12,264 nt of DNA from a virus. Lineage: Duplodnaviria > Heunggongvirae > Uroviricota > Caudoviricetes. Both the position numbers and the translations under genes were made by a program. The notes under the pieces were generated by a model. It did not search any database. It saw only the letters and a list, made by a program, of their open reading frames with translations, and was not told where the DNA came from. Below are positions 3,239 to 9,476 of this stretch, piece by piece. Position 1 is the stretch's first letter. The number at the start of each line of letters is the position of its first letter. The stretch is taken from IMG/VR virus record IMGVR_UViG_2537561977_000026, positions 1-12,264 of that record; one strand, 5' to 3'.

Positions 3239-3526
3239 ATGAAAAAGAAAAATTCTGGCTTTACTGTCAGCGGCCCCGCTCGGCCTGAAATCCGCCCCGG
3301 CGATATTTTCAAAGATAACTACGGCGGCACGATAACGATAAAAGACGTGGAAGAACGGCGCATCACCTACCGCCGTGAAGGCTACGACTATGACTGCGTG
3401 ATGCCTGTTTATCAGTTCCGGCGTGATTTTAAGCTGGTGGGCCATCGTAAAGCCGTAAATCAGAAACGTGCAGCAAGCTATATCCGCAAAATCCGTGAAA
3501 TGCTGGTCGCAGGGGGTAAAAAATGA
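3239..3526 (+). CDS. hypothetical protein (95 aa)
   Basis: SD GGAGAA; its stop overlaps the primase start (ATGA). Basic C-terminus. No family recognised. Confidence 0.5.
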   Translation: MKKKNSGFTVSGPARPEIRPGDIFKDNYGGTITIKDVEERRITYRREGYDYDCVMPVYQFRRDFKLVGHRKAVNQKRAASYIRKIREMLVAGGKK

Positions 3527-4258
3527 AACTGGCACCGAACGTAAAACAGCAGTCACGCGGCATAAAACACAAAGAAACAGAAGTCATTATTTTTGCGGGT
3601 AGTGATGCCTGGTCACACGCAAAACAATGGCAGGAACATGACGCGCGTATGGCCGGAGATAATGAGCCTCCTGTGTGGCTTGGGGAGCAGCAGTTATCCG
3701 AACTGGATAAGCTGCAAATTGTGCCGGAAGGCAGAAAATCCGTGCGCATATTCAAGGCCGGATATCTTGCGCCAGTAATGATAAAGGCGATTGGTCAGAA
3801 GCTGGCGGCGGCAGGCGTACAGGATGCAAATTTTTATCCTGAGGGTATGCACTGCCAGGAGGTGCAGAACTGGCGCGAATATCTGGCCCGTGAACGCCAG
3901 AATCTTTCTGATGGTCTGGTTATTGAGCTTCCGGTAAAGCAAAAAATGCAGCTTTCGCAGATGGCGGACAGTGAGCGCGCGCAGCTGCTTGCCGATCGCT
4001 TTGATGGCGTTTGTGTGCATCCAGAAAGTGAAATCGTTCACGTATGGCGCGGCGGGGTATGGTGTCCGGTCAGCACAATGGAACTTAGCCGCGAAATGGT
4101 GGCGATCTATTCAGAGCACAGGGCCACTTTCAGCAAGCGCGTAATCAATAACGCCGTGGAAGCATTAAAAGTTATTGCCCAGCCAATGGGGGAGCCGTCC
4201 GGCGATTTGTTGCCGTTCGCCAATGGTGCGCTTGACCTGAAAACGGGGGAATTTTCCC

Positions 4259-5552
4259 CTGAGGAATCCCCAGAAAACAAGACAGGCATAGTGAGATGTG
4301 ATCTAATTGATTGTGCTAACAATTTCAAGGAGATCACCACTATGCCTGCACGTTCATTATGCCAAAATTTCCTTAACAACATACTGGCCCCTTTGCATCT
4401 TTACCGTCAAAAATCACTGATTGACGCAACTAATGCTGTAATAAATGGCGCTTCCCTCACACTTACCAGTATCGGGCGTCATTTAACCGGTACGGCATCA
4501 GTTAAAAACAAAATAAAGCGGGTGGATCGACTGTTGGGGAATCGACATTTGCAAAATGAGGTTTCCACCATTTTTCAGCGAATTACCCAAAAGATTACGC
4601 GGGGAATGTCTCGTGTTGTGATACTCATTGACTGGAGTGCTTATCATGCCTCTCGTTTTCAGCTTTTGCGGGCAAGCCTGGCATGTGACGGGCGTTCTTT
4701 ACCGTTGATGAGTTGTGTCGTTCCATCATCACAGACAGCGAATGCAGATGTACATGAGCGTTTTCTGGAATCGCTTGCTGAGTGCTTTTCCCCCGGGACT
4801 GATGTCATTGTTATTACAGATGCCGGTTTTCAGGGGCGATGGTTCCAACAGCTCCGCTCCCGTGGCTGGACCTATATTTGCCGGGTACTGGGCAATCATT
4901 ATTACAATGTTGGTAATGGCTGGGAAAAGGTGTCGGACTCAGGCACAAAAGCATCAACGACAGCAATTTATTTAGGTGAAGGCCTGCTGGGTCGAGATAA
5001 AAATGCACAACATGAAGGGCATTTTTATCTTTATAAAAGTAAGCCTAAAGGTCGTAGATTTAAACGCTCGAAGGAAAGAGCAACCAGACCATCGGTGACG
5101 GCTAAAGCTCGTACTGCCGGGAAATCACCATGGTTTATTTTCACAAACAGTACTGAGTTCTCGCCAAAACAGGTAATGAAATTATACAGCCGTAGAATGC
5201 AAATTGAGCAAAATTTCAGGGATGAAAAAAATCCTCGCTGGGGATTTGGACTACGGTTTGGTGCCAGTCATTCATCCGGGCGGGTCACGGTATTGAGTCT
5301 GATCGCAACATTAGCCAGTATCATTATGTGGTTAAGCGGTTTCAGCCTGGAAAACAAAGGGATACATCATAAATATCAGGCAAATACAGTGAAGCACAGG
5401 CGAGTCATCTCGTTATTAAAACTGGCGGAGAATGTGATTCGACATTCTCCACTCATACTAAACACACTGTCACTTGACGCAGGGCTGAAAGTTCTACAGC
5501 AACGGTATACCAATATGATAATGGTTTACTAAATTTTCTGGGGATCCCTCAG
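4259..5552 (+). mobile_element. IS4-family (IS10-like) insertion sequence, ~1.29 kb
   Basis: Terminal inverted repeats CTGAGGAATCCCCAGAAAAC (4259-4278) and complement of ATTTTCTGGGGATCCCTCAG (5533-5552), 18/20 match. Flanked by direct repeat GGAATTTTCCC (4248-4258 and 5553-5563), consistent with a target-site duplication. Confidence 0.85.
4342..5532 (+). CDS. IS4-family (IS10-like) DDE transposase
   Basis: 396 aa, collinear with IS10 transposase: IKRVDRLLGNRHL, LIDWS, ITDAGF, YSRRMQIEQNFRD, QANTVKHRRV. In the track it appears fused in frame to the primase N-fragment (ORF 3523..5532). Confidence 0.85.
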   Translation: MPARSLCQNFLNNILAPLHLYRQKSLIDATNAVINGASLTLTSIGRHLTGTASVKNKIKRVDRLLGNRHLQNEVSTIFQRITQKITRGMSRVVILIDWSAYHASRFQLLRASLACDGRSLPLMSCVVPSSQTANADVHERFLESLAECFSPGTDVIVITDAGFQGRWFQQLRSRGWTYICRVLGNHYYNVGNGWEKVSDSGTKASTTAIYLGEGLLGRDKNAQHEGHFYLYKSKPKGRRFKRSKERATRPSVTAKARTAGKSPWFIFTNSTEFSPKQVMKLYSRRMQIEQNFRDEKNPRWGFGLRFGASHSSGRVTVLSLIATLASIIMWLSGFSLENKGIHHKYQANTVKHRRVISLLKLAENVIRHSPLILNTLSLDAGLKVLQQRYTNMIMVY

Positions 5553-5974
5553 GGAATTTTCCCCGCACACGCCGGAGAACTGGATCACCACGCACAACGG
5601 CATTGAGTACACGGCACCAGCACCAGGGGAGAACATCCGCGACAACGCTCCAAACTTTCATAAATGGCTTGATCACGCTGCCGGAAAAGATCCGGGCAAG
5701 ATGATGCGTATATGCGCCGCGCTATACATGATTATGGCGAACCGGTACGACTGGCAGATGTTTATTGAGGCCACCGGAGACGGCGGGAGCGGCAAGAGCA
5801 CTTTCACGCACATAGCCAGCCTTCTGGCAGGGAAACAGAACACAGTAAGGCAGTATGACTTTCCGTGAGACAGATGCTGGCCAACGTGGGATATTTAACG
5901 CGGGTTAACATCGTTGTCAGAGCCGCATGGGTGAGCTGTTGCTACACCCCGGTATTTCCACCACGGAGGCCAGC

Positions 5975-7102
5975 ATGAACAACAATAACACATTGTACGT
6001 CGGGTTAGATGTTCACAAAGAATCGATTACTGTCGCTTATGCTATCAATTCAGAACCTGTTGAACTGATGGGTAAAATTGGCACATCACCTACTGATATT
6101 CAGAATCTTTGTAAACGTCTCAGGTCAAAGTCATCGCAGGTCAGTATCGTTTATGAAGCGGGGCCCTGTGGTTATGGACTTTATCGTCGGCTGGTGAAAT
6201 CCGGTTTTGACTGCATGGTCTGCGCCCCCTCACTTATCCCGAAAAAACCGGGGGAGCGGGTTAAAACCGATCGCCGTGATGCCATCAGACTTGTGCGTTC
6301 ACTGCGTGCAGGAGATCTTTCTGCTGTCTACGTACCCGGCATTGAAGATGAGGCATTCCGGGATTTGGCCCGGGCATGGGCATCTGCCCGCGATGATTTA
6401 CGGCATGCAAGGCAACGTCTGAAATCGTTTCTTCTGGTTCATGGGGTCCATTATGTCGGGCGAGCAGATTGGGGCCCTGCACACCGACGCTGGCTCAGCA
6501 AATACTCATTCGAAAGTCCCTGGCGACAATTAGCTTTTGACGAACACCGTCGTACAATAGAAGACCGGCAGGCACAATGTGAACGGCTGGAATCCGCCCT
6601 GAAGGAGGCCGTTACCGAATGGAGGCTGTATCCGGTAGTAGAGGCGCTGCAAGCCATGCGAGGGATTCAGTTTATTACTGCGGTTGGATTAATTTCTGAA
6701 CTGGGTGATCTGACCCGTTTTGAACATCCACGACAACTGATGTCATGGTTTGGTATCACGCCATCAGAATATTCATCGGGTGGAAGCAGACATCAGGGCA
6801 GCATTACCAAAGCCGGAAACAGCTATGCCAGAAAGCTATTGGTCGAGGCAGCGTGGAGTTACCGTCATCCGGCACGCATCAGTCCGGCAATACAAAAAAG
6901 GCAGGAAAATTTACCCCGCCCCGTCATTGACAGAGCATGGGATGCTCAACTCAGGCTTTGTAAGAGGTATCGAAAACTTCAGGCCAAAGGAAAGAATGTC
7001 AATATTACAATTGTTGCTGTTGCACGTGAGCTGGCGGGTTTTATCTGGGATATGGGCCGAATAGCAATGTCTGTCGCACAACAACCACAATGTCACAAAT
7101 AA
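5975..7102 (+). CDS. IS110-family (DEDD) transposase
   Basis: GGAGG 5 nt before ATG 5975. N-terminal LYVGLDVHKESITVA and C-terminal LQAMRGIQFITAVGLISELGDLTRFEHPRQLMSWFGITPSEYSSGGSRHQGSITKAGNSYARKLLVEAAW are IS110/IS116/IS902-type motifs. The track ORF starts at 5927 but 5975 has the SD. Confidence 0.85.
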   Translation: MNNNNTLYVGLDVHKESITVAYAINSEPVELMGKIGTSPTDIQNLCKRLRSKSSQVSIVYEAGPCGYGLYRRLVKSGFDCMVCAPSLIPKKPGERVKTDRRDAIRLVRSLRAGDLSAVYVPGIEDEAFRDLARAWASARDDLRHARQRLKSFLLVHGVHYVGRADWGPAHRRWLSKYSFESPWRQLAFDEHRRTIEDRQAQCERLESALKEAVTEWRLYPVVEALQAMRGIQFITAVGLISELGDLTRFEHPRQLMSWFGITPSEYSSGGSRHQGSITKAGNSYARKLLVEAAWSYRHPARISPAIQKRQENLPRPVIDRAWDAQLRLCKRYRKLQAKGKNVNITIVAVARELAGFIWDMGRIAMSVAQQPQCHK

Positions 7103-7118
7103 AAAATGAGAATAACCA

Positions 7119-7307
7119 GTTCCCTGAAGGCGACGTAGCCCGGTACAAGAGTAACCCACGTTAGCGCTTGGCGACGGCGGAACAAAGCTGATTCGCGACG
7201 TAAGAAAGTGGCAGGCTCATATGACGGACCTCTGTAATGCGGTATCCAACCCGCGAATATCAGCGTGATTCACCGTCGGATTTACTGCTACGTCGCCCTC
7301 AGGGAAT
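7119..7307 (+). ncRNA. candidate bridge/seek RNA of the IS110-family element
   Basis: 19-nt inverted repeat TCCCTGAAGGCGACGTAGC (7121-7139) / GCTACGTCGCCCTCAGGGA (7287-7305), 18/19 pairs, extendable by 2 bp, enclosing ~147 nt. Internal ATATCAGCG (7257-7265) is identical to the IS-end/flank junction at 7363-7371; AGCGCT (7163-7168) matches the right flank. Confidence 0.3.
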
Positions 7308-8116
7308 TAAACCTAAAAAGAAAATCGTCAAAATTAGAGATTCCGGTTTGACACGGAAAGTCATATCAGCGCTGAGATGACATCGCTTGATGATGCTGGT
7401 GGGCGTGCACAGGTTGTCGGGAGTCGTCTTATCGTCCTGGCAGACCAGCCGAAATATACAGGCGAAGGAACGGGCATCAAGAAAATCACGGGCGGCGACC
7501 CCGTGGAAATTAACCCGAAATATGAAAAGCGTTTTACGGCGGTAATCAGGGCGGTGGTGCTGGCAACCAATAACAATCCGATGATATTCACCGAACGGGC
7601 CGGAGGCGTGGCACGTCGTCGCGTGATTTTCCGTTTCGACAATATCGTCAACGAGGCCGAAAAAGACAGGGAACTACCGGAAAAGATTGCGGCTGAAATC
7701 CCCGTCATTATCCGCCGATTACTGGCGAACTTTGCAGACCCTGAAAAGGCGCGGGCTTTACTACTGGAACAGCGTGACGGTGATGAAGCACTGGCGATAA
7801 AGCAGCAAACGGATCCGGTTATTGAGTTTTGCCAGTTCCTGAATTTTCTGGAGGAAGCACGTGGCCTGATGATGGGTGGCGGTGGCGATTCCGTGAAGTA
7901 CACGACCAGAAACAGCCTTTACCGCGTCTATCTGGCGTTTATGGCATACGCAGGCAGAACCAAACCACTAAACGTAAATGACTTTGGCAAGGCCATGAAG
8001 CCAGCCGCAAAAGTTTACGGACATGAATATATTACGCGAAAAATTAATGGAGTGACGCAGACTAACGCAATAACAACCGACGATTGCGACGCGTTTTTAT
8101 AATTTTTGGCAATTGC

Positions 8117-9348: not shown

Positions 9349-9354
9349 ACGCCT

Positions 9355-9396
9355 AAAAAAGCCCGATAAGGCCAGAGGAGTCTTATCGGGCTTTTT
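9355..9396. terminator. rho-independent terminator, probably bidirectional
   Basis: A6, then perfect 10-bp stem GCCCGATAAG (9361-9370) / CTTATCGGGC (9382-9391) with an 11-nt loop, then T5. Confidence 0.6.
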
Positions 9397-9476
9397 CATA
9401 TGAGGCTTTTATCTAACAGCATGGTGACTACTGTTGCCGGAAATCATTTCATAATTTGCAACACAAATCAATATTA

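What the first reader, a model, noticed from the sequence alone, without database searches (positions are those of the whole stretch)
7103..7367. Candidate bridge/seek RNA in the 3' non-coding end of the IS110-family element
The 265-bp region after the DEDD transposase stop contains a 19-21 bp near-perfect inverted repeat (7119-7139 with 7287-7307) that would close a ~190-nt structured RNA. Inside it, ATATCAGCG (7257-7265) is identical to the sequence spanning the IS right end and flank (7363-7371), AGCGCT (7163-7168) matches the flank, and GGCAG...CATATGAC (7211-7225) echoes the left end GGCAGTATGAC (5855-5865). IS110/IS1111-family recombinases are known to be guided by an element-encoded RNA with segments matching both donor ends and target, and the long non-coding region lies 3' of the transposase as in IS1111-type elements. 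This copy would give a natural donor/target pair to read the guide code from.
Basis: partly seen in the sequence, partly recalled or inferred. Interest (0 to 1): 0.7.

Follow-up and report, generated by a model that had tools for sequence, protein, structure and literature searches.

The report
ISSso6 bridge (seek) RNA gene

Summary
The element is ISSso6 (IS110 family, IS1111 group), 1,520 bp at 5850-7369, inserted without duplication at an AG in a prophage primase gene.

Its 3' non-coding region carries a conserved structured RNA gene at 7119-7307 on the + strand.
- In 47 relatives the fold is 98.8% paired, with 8 compensatory pairs.
- One internal loop holds two hypervariable patches that covary with the flanks. 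[quoted passage not shown] GUA-AG (7200-7204) copies left flank+AG.
- A multiloop holds the donor guides. AUAUCAG (7257-7263) copies the right end+AG. CUGU (7232-7235) pairs with the first bases of the left end.

- The 9-mer is mostly a donor guide that is invariant across the family; only the next base tracks the target.
- The "GGCAG...CATATGAC" echo is not supported.
- The left-target and right-donor guides were missed.

Durrant et al. 2024 (Supplementary Table 5) already list ISSso6 with a bridge RNA detected in its right end. The finding is therefore ordinary and already catalogued, although this guide map is new detail. No transcript or activity data were available.

The parts
5850..7369 (+). 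ISSso6 insertion sequence, 1,520 bp counting one copy of the AG core. Equally 5848-7367, because the AG is ambiguous.
   Evidence: The empty primase site reads ...CAGTAAGCGCTGAG...; the occupied site reads ...CAGTA|AG|GCAGTATGAC...GTCATATC|AG|CGCTGAG. RefSeq names the transposase of identical copies 'IS110-like element ISSso6 family transposase'.
5845..5849 (+). Left half of the target: GTA plus the core AG at 5848-5849.
   Evidence: Invariant in 13 of 13 ISSso6 copies in different contexts.
5854..5867 (+). Left subterminal inverted repeat, TATGACTTTCCGTG.
   Evidence: 14/14 complementary to 7352-7365 (I3). The inner part covaries between the two ends in relatives.
5851..5856 (+). Possible -10 hexamer (CAGTAT) of a promoter assembled only at the circle junction.
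   Evidence: Read directly from the sequence: TTGACA (7348-7353), then 17 nt across the joined ends, then CAGTAT. Inferred by analogy with ISEc11 (PMC11187229). Not tested.
5975..7102 (+). Transposase/recombinase gene, 375 aa, DEDD (RuvC-like) plus Transposase_20 domains.
   Evidence: Pfam PF01548 and PF02371. RefSeq CDS of identical copies is 1,128 nt.
7119..7307 (+). Bridge/seek RNA gene, the conserved structured core of about 189 nt.
   Evidence: Conservation block. Consensus fold of 45 pairs, 98.8% paired versus 32-43% when partners are slid, 8 compensatory pairs, 0/500 shuffles reach the observed values. Many G:U pairs fit the + strand only.
7119..7139 (+). P1 closing stem, 5' arm; pairs with 7287-7307.
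   Evidence: Four of its 20 pairs show compensatory changes.
7287..7307 (+). P1 closing stem, 3' arm.
7161..7168 (+). Right target guide on the 5' side of the internal target loop. [quoted passage not shown] CU is the anti-core.
   Evidence: In 31 distinct relatives, right-flank positions 1-5 are paired 84/87/84/84/71% versus 62/38/47/41/42% when flanks are permuted. The mean is 4.10 of 5 versus 2.30, with a maximum of 3.13 in 2,000 permutations.
7171..7196 (+). P4 hairpin that caps the target-binding loop.
   Evidence: Helices 66-69/91-94 and 72-73/84-85 of alignment A1, with compensatory changes.
7200..7204 (+). Left target guide on the 3' side of the same loop. GUA + AG has the same sense as the left flank plus core, so it would pair with the bottom strand.
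   Evidence: Identity to left-flank positions -1/-2/-3 is 92/92/76% versus 50/42/30% permuted (25 relatives). GTA|AG is invariant at 13 ISSso6 sites.
7232..7236 (+). Right donor guide. CUGU pairs with GCAG, the first four bases of the left end after the core (one G:U). It lies 3 nt upstream of hairpin P5.
   Evidence: Cross-clade covariation at a fixed register in 36 distinct lineages: 3.58 of 5 paired versus 2.88 permuted, maximum 3.22 in 5,000 permutations. Examples: UGGUC/GACCA, UUCUC/GAGAA, AUGUC/GACAT. There is no covariation within the close ISSso6 group.
7239..7254 (+). P5 hairpin (GCGG...CCGC) between the two donor guides.
   Evidence: Invariant in 47 of 47 relatives. The motif GCGGUAnnCAACCCGCG retrieved more than 100 further loci.
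7257..7264 (+). Left donor guide AUAUCAG, the same sense as the last 5 nt of the right end plus the core AG. It is followed by one base (C7264) that tracks the first base of the right flank.
   Evidence: Identical to 7363-7369. Across the clade the guide follows the right end: AUGAGAG, AUAAGAG, CAUCGGAG, CAUAGAAG. The score is 4.94 of 5 versus 3.92 permuted, maximum 4.61. Base 7264 equals right-flank base 1 in 94% versus 45% permuted.
7348..7353 (+). Conserved TTGACA just inside the right repeat; candidate -35 of a circle-junction promoter.
   Evidence: TTGAC(A) is present at this position in all relatives examined. Its function is inferred, not tested.
7352..7365 (+). Right subterminal inverted repeat, CACGGAAAGTCATA.
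   Evidence: I3.
7368..7373 (+). Right junction: core AG (7368-7369) plus right target CGCT.
   Evidence: Empty-site comparison. CG[C/T] is conserved at 13 ISSso6 sites.

Best explanation
The region 7119-7307 is the gene for the guide RNA (bridge RNA / seekRNA) of ISSso6, read from the + strand. It is most likely the 3' part of the transposase transcript and then trimmed.

**Fold.** A long closing stem (P1) carries two modules.
- Module 1 is an internal loop capped by a hairpin. [quoted passage not shown] Together they specify 5'-GTA|AG|CG(C/T)-3'.
- Module 2 is a multiloop around hairpin P5. [quoted passage not shown] Together they recognise the joined ends of the excised circle (...ATATC|AG|GCAG...).

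**Reaction.** The DEDD recombinase, holding this RNA, brings the two duplexes together and exchanges strands at the shared AG. The element is inserted with no duplication.

**What is shown here:** the structure and its conservation; covariation of all four guide segments with the flanks or ends; the AG crossover and the target consensus.

**What is inferred by analogy with IS621 and ISEc11:** that the RNA is made, is bound by the recombinase and is required; the circular intermediate and its junction promoter.
For: - **Identity of the element.** Pfam DEDD_Tnp_IS110 + Transposase_20. RefSeq annotates identical copies as ISSso6.
- **Ends and crossover.** Comparison of empty and occupied sites shows a 2-nt AG overlap and no duplication.
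- **Conservation.** The conserved block coincides with the stem-closed element.
- **Structure.** The fold is kept in 47 relatives: 98.8% of cells paired versus 32-43% when partners are slid, 8 compensatory pairs, 0/500 shuffles. This copy itself carries a compensated change (CCCACG/GUGG where most have CCCGCG/GCGG).
- **Strand.** Frequent G:U pairs fit the + strand only.
- **Target guides.** They covary with the flanks. Examples: L004 GAUGCU versus AG|CATC; L062 CCACGCU versus AG|CGTGG; L024 UCCUGUU versus AA|CAGGA; L005 GAACAAG equals its left flank.
- **Same guides, same site.** Twelve further ISSso6 copies with identical guides lie in nGTA|AG|CG[C/T] in unrelated contexts.
- **Donor guides.** They covary with the element ends across a wider clade with 43-50% transposase identity and in metagenome loci.
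- **Published support.** Durrant et al. 2024 list ISSso6 as 'Detected Bridge RNA End: RE; group IS1111'. The order found here, with the top-strand match 5' of the bottom-strand match and the two overlapping in the target, is the order Siddiquee et al. report for IS1111-type seekRNAs.
Against: - No transcript, processing or binding data could be obtained.
- No sigma-70-like promoter or intrinsic terminator was found flanking the RNA. Expression must therefore rely on read-through from the transposase gene plus processing.
- Rfam has no matching family.
- The minus strand folds about as well in energy terms (-81.8 kcal/mol, z = -4.7). The strand assignment therefore rests on G:U pairs and on the logic of the guides.
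- The right donor guide is only 4-5 nt, does not covary within the close ISSso6 group (some relatives mismatch), and does not cover the core.
- The left target guide is short, 3-5 nt plus the core.
- Covariation of AUAUCAG with the right end would also be expected if the internal copy were a DNA-level repeat.
Confidence: 0.9

Rival explanations
1. The internal ATATCAG(C), and possibly other patches, act as DNA rather than RNA: subterminal repeats of the right end that the transposase binds or cuts. On this view the conserved fold is incidental or serves only as an mRNA 3' structure.
For: ATATCAG is common to the family regardless of target. The internal DNA copy is evidently used as a recombination site. 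The 106-108 bp between the internal and terminal ATATCAG is exactly duplicated in tandem in two unrelated elements, L081 and L044. In four loci foreign DNA is joined exactly after the internal ATATCAG.
Against: It does not explain the hypervariable loop patches that track the left and right flanks on opposite strands. It does not explain the compensatory base pairs or the G:U pattern, nor the antisense 4-5 nt that tracks the left end. Use of the internal copy as a pseudo-end is what one would expect if the guide RNA recognises its own template DNA, so the two views are compatible rather than exclusive.
Confidence: 0.05
2. The structure is a generic 3' UTR element (stabiliser, terminator or attenuator), or a regulatory sRNA acting on transposase expression, with no role in choosing DNA sites.
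For: It lies directly after the stop codon. The fold is strong. The left end carries a conserved motif, AACGCGGGTTA (5898-5908), complementary to two AACCCGCG motifs of the RNA, which could be a regulatory 5'UTR-3'UTR contact. ISPpu9 has sRNAs that regulate its transposase (PMC12288879).
Against: There is no T-run terminator. A pure stability or regulatory element would not need loop sequences that change with the insertion site. The left-end motif shows no clean covariation with the RNA.
Confidence: 0.04
3. The matches are chance resemblances in a conserved non-coding region.
For: Individual matches are short (5-9 nt). A single 9-mer repeat in about 270 nt is not rare by my estimate.
Against: Permutation tests across relatives never reached the observed values: 0 of 2,000 for the target guides and 0 of 5,000 for the donor guides. 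Thirteen ISSso6 copies share the predicted target.
Confidence: 0.01

Closest known systems
seekRNA of IS1111-family elements (ISEc11, ISPa11, ISKpn4, ISPst6; Siddiquee et al. 2024, PMC11187229)
   Same: [quoted passage not shown] Insertion is site-specific with no duplication. A TTGACA in the right end is placed to form a junction promoter. The target-loop arm alone (7149-7218, 70 nt) is close in size to the 82-96 nt 'peak' seekRNAs, and the whole RNA is close to the 'long' form.
   Different: The transposase is 375 aa, against 330-350 aa stated for the IS1111 family. It shares only about 17-25% identity with the other ISfinder transposases in that paper's identity matrix. The extensions beyond the repeats are 4-6 bp on the left and 2-4 bp on the right, against the 7-bp left extension required for ISEc11. 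No experimental data exist for ISSso6. I could not retrieve ISEc11 DNA to compare the folds directly.
IS621 bridge RNA (Durrant et al. 2024, PMC11208160; Hiraizumi et al. 2024, PMC11208158)
   Same: There are two modules, one for the target and one for the donor. [quoted passage not shown] The pairings overlap at a 2-nt core, and a DEDD recombinase is the partner.
   Different: - The RNA is in the right end, 3' of the gene, not the left end.
- The order of guides is reversed in both modules (top-strand guide first).
- The donor guides sit in a multiloop, not a simple internal loop.
- The core is AG instead of CT.
- The left guides are shorter (3-5 + 2 nt versus 8-9).
- The right donor guide does not cover the core.
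- The extra base that reads the other partner follows a bottom-strand guide (7264 after AUAUCAG). In IS621 the handshake bases extend the top-strand guides.
ISSso6 entry in Durrant et al. 2024, Supplementary Table 5
   Same: It is the same element. The table records 'Detected Bridge RNA End: RE' and group IS1111 for ISSso6.
   Different: The table gives only the end in which a covariance model hit. In the sources I could search it gives no coordinates, fold or guide assignment. The map given here is new detail.
ISPpu9 of Pseudomonas putida (Pares-Guillen et al. 2025, PMC12288879)
   Same: It is an IS110-family element that recombines at an AG dinucleotide shared by the element and the target. 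It uses alternative end copies to make several circles and tandem modules. This resembles the duplications at the internal ATATCAG seen here.
   Different: Its downstream sRNA (Ssr9) is not required for transposition and is treated as a separate MITE-like passenger. Its bridge RNA is upstream of the gene.

Membership tests
IS110/IS1111 bridge (seek) RNA | Encoded in the long non-coding end of an element whose only protein is a DEDD (RuvC-like) + Tnp-domain recombinase | tested here: met
   PF01548 + PF02371 in the 375-aa ORF. The 3' non-coding end is 265 nt against about 125 nt at the 5' end.
IS110/IS1111 bridge (seek) RNA | Conserved secondary structure supported by covariation | tested here: met
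   45 pairs, 98.8% paired, 8 compensatory pairs, 0/500 shuffles; slid controls give 32-43%.
IS110/IS1111 bridge (seek) RNA | A loop with two guides that pair with opposite strands of the target and overlap at a core dinucleotide | tested here: met
   7161-7168 (top strand, AG + right flank) and 7200-7204 (bottom strand, left flank + AG). Both covary with the flanks in relatives, and the target consensus comes from 13 copies.
IS110/IS1111 bridge (seek) RNA | Segments that pair with both halves of the donor (the joined element ends) | tested here: met
   AUAUCAG (7257-7263) equals the right end plus core. CUGU (7232-7235) is antisense to the start of the left end. Both covary across the wider clade. 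The right donor guide is short and its support is weaker.
IS110/IS1111 bridge (seek) RNA | The RNA is expressed, co-purifies with the recombinase, and is required in cis or trans for circle formation and insertion | not testable with these tools
   No expression or biochemical data were available. No promoter or terminator was predicted next to the RNA.
IS110/IS1111 bridge (seek) RNA | Match to a curated or published covariance model | tested here: inconclusive
   No Rfam 15 match reached E <= 1 in the IS element; the three weak matches elsewhere in the window were all below their gathering scores, and no family of this kind matched. The published models could not be run, but their authors report a hit in the right end of ISSso6.
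IS1111 group of the IS110 family | Subterminal inverted repeats of 7-17 bp set back from the ends | tested here: met
   14-bp perfect repeats at 5854-5867 / 7352-7365, set 4-6 and 2-4 bp inside the ends.
IS1111 group of the IS110 family | The longer non-coding region and the guide RNA lie downstream of the transposase gene | tested here: met
IS1111 group of the IS110 family | Site-specific insertion in one orientation without target duplication | tested here: met
   Empty versus occupied site; 13 sites share nGTA|AG|CG[C/T].
IS1111 group of the IS110 family | Transposase of 330-350 aa related over its full length to that of IS1111 (Siddiquee et al.) | tested here: not met
   It is 375 aa and shares only about 17-25% identity with other ISfinder members in that paper's matrix. 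ISfinder, as relayed by Durrant's table, still groups it with IS1111. It is best described as a deep-branching IS1111-like lineage.

The most novel reading that the evidence does not exclude
In this deep-branching IS1111-like clade the exchange may have the opposite polarity to IS621. Two observations point that way.
- When the dinucleotide at the right junction is not AG, it was AA or GG in 11 of 12 loci. In 10 of those 11 the left junction is still AG (the exception, L024, reads CA at a doubtful left end), and the right target guide's anti-core is UU or CC to match. The left junction therefore keeps the donor's core and the right junction keeps the target's core.
- The only base that reads the non-cognate partner (7264, tracking right-flank base 1) extends a bottom-strand guide. 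In IS621 the handshake bases extend the top-strand guides.

Together these would mean a mirror-image handshake and a crossover fixed at the left edge of the core.

A further consequence is that the DNA encoding the left donor guide is itself a functional pseudo-end. It seeds 106-bp tandem duplications and truncated or chimeric elements.
Probability: 0.3. Interest if true: 0.5.

Novelty: already known. Interest (0 to 1): 0.3.

Why it matters
RNA-guided DEDD recombinases are being developed as programmable tools for inserting DNA. Most mechanistic knowledge comes from IS621, with some from ISEc11.

This copy, together with its empty site, 12 sister copies and about 100 relatives, gives a clean natural read-out of the guide code for a distant IS1111-like lineage. 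It shows which bases read the target, which read the element's own ends, and in what order. That would let someone design retargeting experiments for ISSso6, an element native to E. coli and Shigella.

As a discovery it adds little. The RNA class was published in 2024 and ISSso6 is already listed as carrying such an RNA in its right end.

Tried and rejected
- **Rfam.** A search of the whole window at E <= 1 found nothing in the element.
- **First right-donor-guide candidate.** UACUGCU (7283-7289), antisense to GGCAGTA, was rejected. It lies partly in stem P1, does not covary, and would break the symmetry of the two modules. The segment 3 nt upstream of P5 fits a fixed register across the clade.
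GGCAG pairs or bulges within helix P3. The variable bases 7219-7224 do not track the ends or the flanks. One of them extends helix P2 through a covarying pair between alignment columns 35 and 122 (U:A in some relatives, C:G in others).
- **Left-target-guide tail as a reader of the left end** (a handshake across the core). This holds for a few relatives, for example L095 CACUAGACCG, but not generally.
- **Bases 2-3 after AUAUCAG tracking the flank.** No signal; only the first base tracks it.
- **Left-end motif AACGCGGGTTA pairing with the RNA.** The complementarity is real, but covariation is not clean.
- **Promoter and terminator scan around the RNA.** Nothing convincing.
- **Strand choice from folding energy.** Uninformative, since both strands fold well.
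- **Retrieving ISEc11 (CP053751) for a direct comparison.** The record is not in the collections.
- **Coding alternative.** No ORF of 60 aa or more lies within 7160-7360, and the indel and hypervariable pattern is non-coding.
Full report
**What is in the window**

The ORF ending at 7102 carries the DEDD_Tnp_IS110 and Transposase_20 domains. Megablast finds the 1.5-kb element in 126 E. coli genomes and in 68 plasmid records, 44 of them Shigella and 18 Escherichia. RefSeq calls its product 'IS110-like element ISSso6 family transposase', and in one record 'IS110 family RNA-guided transposase'. RefSeq annotates a 375-aa protein in identical copies, which corresponds to ATG 5975.

The element sits inside a prophage DNA primase gene. 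An uninterrupted copy of that gene reads ...ACACAGTAAGCGCTGAGATGAC.... The window reads ...ACACAGTA|AG|GCAGTATGAC ... GTCATATC|AG|CGCTGAGATGAC. The element is therefore 1,520 bp (5850-7369, counting one AG). It inserted with no duplication, and the only ambiguity is a shared AG, which I call the core. Perfect 14-bp subterminal inverted repeats lie at 5854-5867 and 7352-7365.

**Checking the observation**

The inverted repeat (7120-7139 / 7287-7306, 20 nt, 95%), the repeated 9-mer ATATCAGCG (7257-7265 = 7363-7371) and AGCGCT (7163-7168) are all present. The region folds far better than shuffles (z = -5.3). The 9-mer alone would not be significant. What follows gives it meaning.

**Conservation and structure**

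A scan of one genome per species returned 77 loci encoding relatives, mostly Burkholderiaceae. The full-length transposase matches are 70-81% identical.
- Their 3' non-coding regions align to the window at 72-84% identity. The block conserved in most of them is 7118-7308, exactly the stem-closed element.
- In an alignment of 47 distinct sequences (A1) the scaffold is nearly invariant, but four short patches are hypervariable.
- RNAalifold predicts 45 pairs in 8 helices.
- Counting pairs on that structure gives 98.8% of cells paired, against 32-43% when partners are slid by 1-3 columns. Eight pairs have compensatory changes, and 0 of 500 shuffles reach the observed values.
- The window copy itself carries a compensated change (CCCACG...GUGG where most have CCCGCG...GCGG).
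- Many conserved G:U pairs (for example 40/47, 45/47 and 42/47) would be C-A on the other strand. The RNA is therefore read from the + strand, although folding energy alone does not discriminate.
- Window coordinates of the helices are listed.

**Target-binding loop**

Two of the hypervariable patches form the two sides of one internal loop, closed by helix P3 and capped by hairpin P4.

The 5' side is the reverse complement of AG + right flank. Examples: L004 GAUGCU versus AG|CATC; L062 CCACGCU versus AG|CGTGG; L024 UCCUGUU versus AA|CAGGA; L026 ACAACCC versus GG|GTTGT. The 3' side has the same sense as left flank + AG. Examples: L005 GAACAAG, L019 CGGAAG, L066 CCAUAG.

| Test | Loci | Observed | Permuted flanks |
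|---|---|---|---|
| Right-flank positions 1-5 paired, per position | 31 | 84/87/84/84/71% | 62/38/47/41/42% |
| Right-flank positions 1-5 paired, mean of 5 | 31 | 4.10 | 2.30 (max 3.13 in 2,000) |
| Left-flank positions -1/-2/-3 identical | 25 | 92/92/76% | 50/42/30% |

In the window the right target guide is UUAGCG-CU (7161-7168). It would pair with AG-CGCTGA, with one G:U pair. The left target guide is GUA-AG (7200-7204).

Twelve further ISSso6 copies taken from different chromosomal and plasmid contexts have identical guides. All of them lie in nGTA|AG|CG[C/T]. C or T at the third right-flank position is what a guide G would tolerate.

**Donor-binding part**

AUAUCAG (7257-7263) lies in a single-stranded junction after hairpin P5. 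It equals the last five bases of the right end plus the core. It is invariant in the close family because the ends are invariant.

To test it I took more distant relatives with 43-50% transposase identity: ISSfr2, ISEc45 and others from plasmids. I also took about 120 metagenome loci found with the P5 motif GCGGTANNCAACCCGCG.
- **Left donor guide.** In these relatives the segment changes with the right end: AUGAGAG / ...CATGAGAG, AUAAGAG / ...CATAAGAG, CAUCGGAG / ...CATCGGAG, CAUAGAAG / ...CATAGAAG. With right ends located independently through the subterminal repeats, identity is 4.94 of 5 versus 3.92 permuted, maximum 4.61 in 5,000 permutations.
- **Right donor guide.** The five bases ending 3 nt before P5 pair with the core G plus the first four bases of the left end. 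Examples: UGGUC/GACCA, UUCUC/GAGAA, AUGUC/GACAT. Across 36 distinct lineages the score is 3.58 of 5 versus 2.88 permuted, maximum 3.22. In the window this is CUGU (7232-7235) against GCAG, with one G:U pair.

This right donor guide is short and does not cover the core. It also does not covary within the close ISSso6 group, so it is the least secure assignment.

Both modules thus have the same layout: top-strand guide, then hairpin, then bottom-strand guide. This is the reverse of IS621. It is the order reported for IS1111-type seekRNAs. A donor site in a multiloop is what Durrant et al. describe for many IS1111 orthologues.

**The 9-mer**

Seven of its nine bases are the left donor guide. The eighth (C7264) equals the first base of the right flank in 94% of relatives, against 45% when flanks are permuted. 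The ninth shows no signal.

This one-base extension reads the non-cognate partner, like the handshake guides of IS621. However, it extends a bottom-strand guide rather than a top-strand guide. An alternative reading is an RNA-RNA contact with the complementary base of the right target guide. I cannot separate the two readings.

**What was not supported**

GGCAG (7211-7215) is part of helix P3 and its bulge. The TATGAC resemblance is specific to this copy. A candidate right donor guide next to P1 was dropped. A general handshake after the left target guide was not found.

**Expression**

No promoter or terminator was predicted around the RNA. A conserved TTGACA at 7348-7353 would lie 17 nt from CAGTAT (5851-5856) once the ends are joined. 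A junction promoter of this type is known for ISEc11. I infer that the RNA is made as the 3' part of the transposase transcript and then processed. Nothing here tests that.

**Comparison with what is known, and novelty**

The mechanism class was established in 2024 for IS621 (PMC11208160, PMC11208158) and for ISEc11, ISPa11 and ISKpn4 (PMC11187229). Supplementary Table 5 of Durrant et al. lists ISSso6 with 'Detected Bridge RNA End: RE' and group IS1111.

Points of difference:
- ISSso6 departs from typical IS1111 members in transposase length (375 aa against 330-350) and in very low identity to them. It is best described as a deep-branching IS1111-like lineage.
- The detailed guide map is, as far as I could find, new. 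The six papers that mention ISSso6 use it only as an IS name. The map is still incremental.

**Side observations with mechanistic flavour**

1. The 106-108 bp between the internal and the terminal ATATCAG is exactly duplicated in tandem in an E. coli ISSso6 copy (L081) and, independently, in a Paraburkholderia relative (L044). In four other loci foreign DNA is joined exactly after the internal ATATCAG. The DNA that encodes the left donor guide therefore behaves as a pseudo right end.
2. The right-junction dinucleotide is not AG in 12 loci: AA in 9, GG in 2, and AC in L200. In 10 of the 11 AA/GG loci the left junction is still AG; the exception is L024, whose left end reads CA and is doubtful. 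The right target guide's anti-core is UU or CC accordingly. The left junction keeps the donor core and the right junction keeps the target core.

**Verdict**

- The kind is already known and this member is already catalogued.
- Interest is modest.

Noticed in passing
L081:1481-1692 (E. coli FDAARGOS_943) and L044:1453-1668 (Paraburkholderia domus); corresponds to window 7264-7369: The 106-108 bp between the internal ATATCAG (the left-donor-guide template) and the terminal ATATCAG is exactly duplicated in tandem in two unrelated elements. Several other E. coli records matched in two pieces with a place 100-340 bp longer than a single copy (H5, H15, H17). The DNA copy of the guide seems to act as a pseudo right end.
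   Followed up: partly
L070, L047, L036, L029 (just after the internal ATATCAG): In four relatives unrelated DNA is joined exactly after the internal ATATCAG. In three of them (L047, L036, L029) it starts ATCCTATGAAGCG and runs into an unidentified ORF; in L070 it starts ATCCTCTCAAG. This is either another site-specific insertion in the guide-RNA gene or a use of the pseudo-end.
   Followed up: no
L003, L007, L027 (after ...CGG of helix P2, equivalent to window 7227): Foreign DNA interrupts the bridge-RNA gene at the same position in three loci. In L027 it runs into an IS1111-like transposase ORF (MNYTTVGVDIAKS...); L003 and L007 share the same insert start but end at the contig edge.
   Followed up: no
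Junction dinucleotides in L009, L019, L023, L034, L049, L145(-), L180, L209 (AA), L026, L088 (GG); window 5848-5849 and 7368-7369: In these ten loci the right-junction dinucleotide is AA or GG while the left junction is still AG. The right target guide's anti-core is UU or CC to match. The left junction keeps the donor's core and the right junction keeps the target's, which bears on where the strands are exchanged.
   Followed up: partly
window 5898-5908 (AACGCGGGTTA) versus 7153-7160 and 7247-7254: A motif in the left end (5' UTR), conserved in relatives, is complementary to the two AACCC(G/A)CG motifs that precede the right target guide and the left donor guide. Some distant relatives look compensatory (CGAGGGTT with AACCCUCG), but a class-by-class test showed no clean covariation. 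It may be a 5'UTR-3'UTR contact, a protein site, or a relic of a duplication.
   Followed up: partly
L049:2690-2730: One relative has lost the whole target-binding arm (P3, the loop and P4) but keeps P1, P5 and the donor guides. It is presumably a copy that can no longer choose a target.
   Followed up: no
window 3523-5532: The same primase gene appears to be hit a second time. One long ORF fuses a D5_N primase domain to a DDE_Tnp_1 transposase domain. RefSeq annotates an IS4-like IS421 transposase just upstream of the primase fragment in the identical locus of strain VL40.
   Followed up: partly
window 9353-9418 (- strand): A stem-loop followed by a run of U gave a weak sub-threshold Rfam match (NsiR1, 22.5 bits). 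It looks like an ordinary intrinsic terminator.
   Followed up: no
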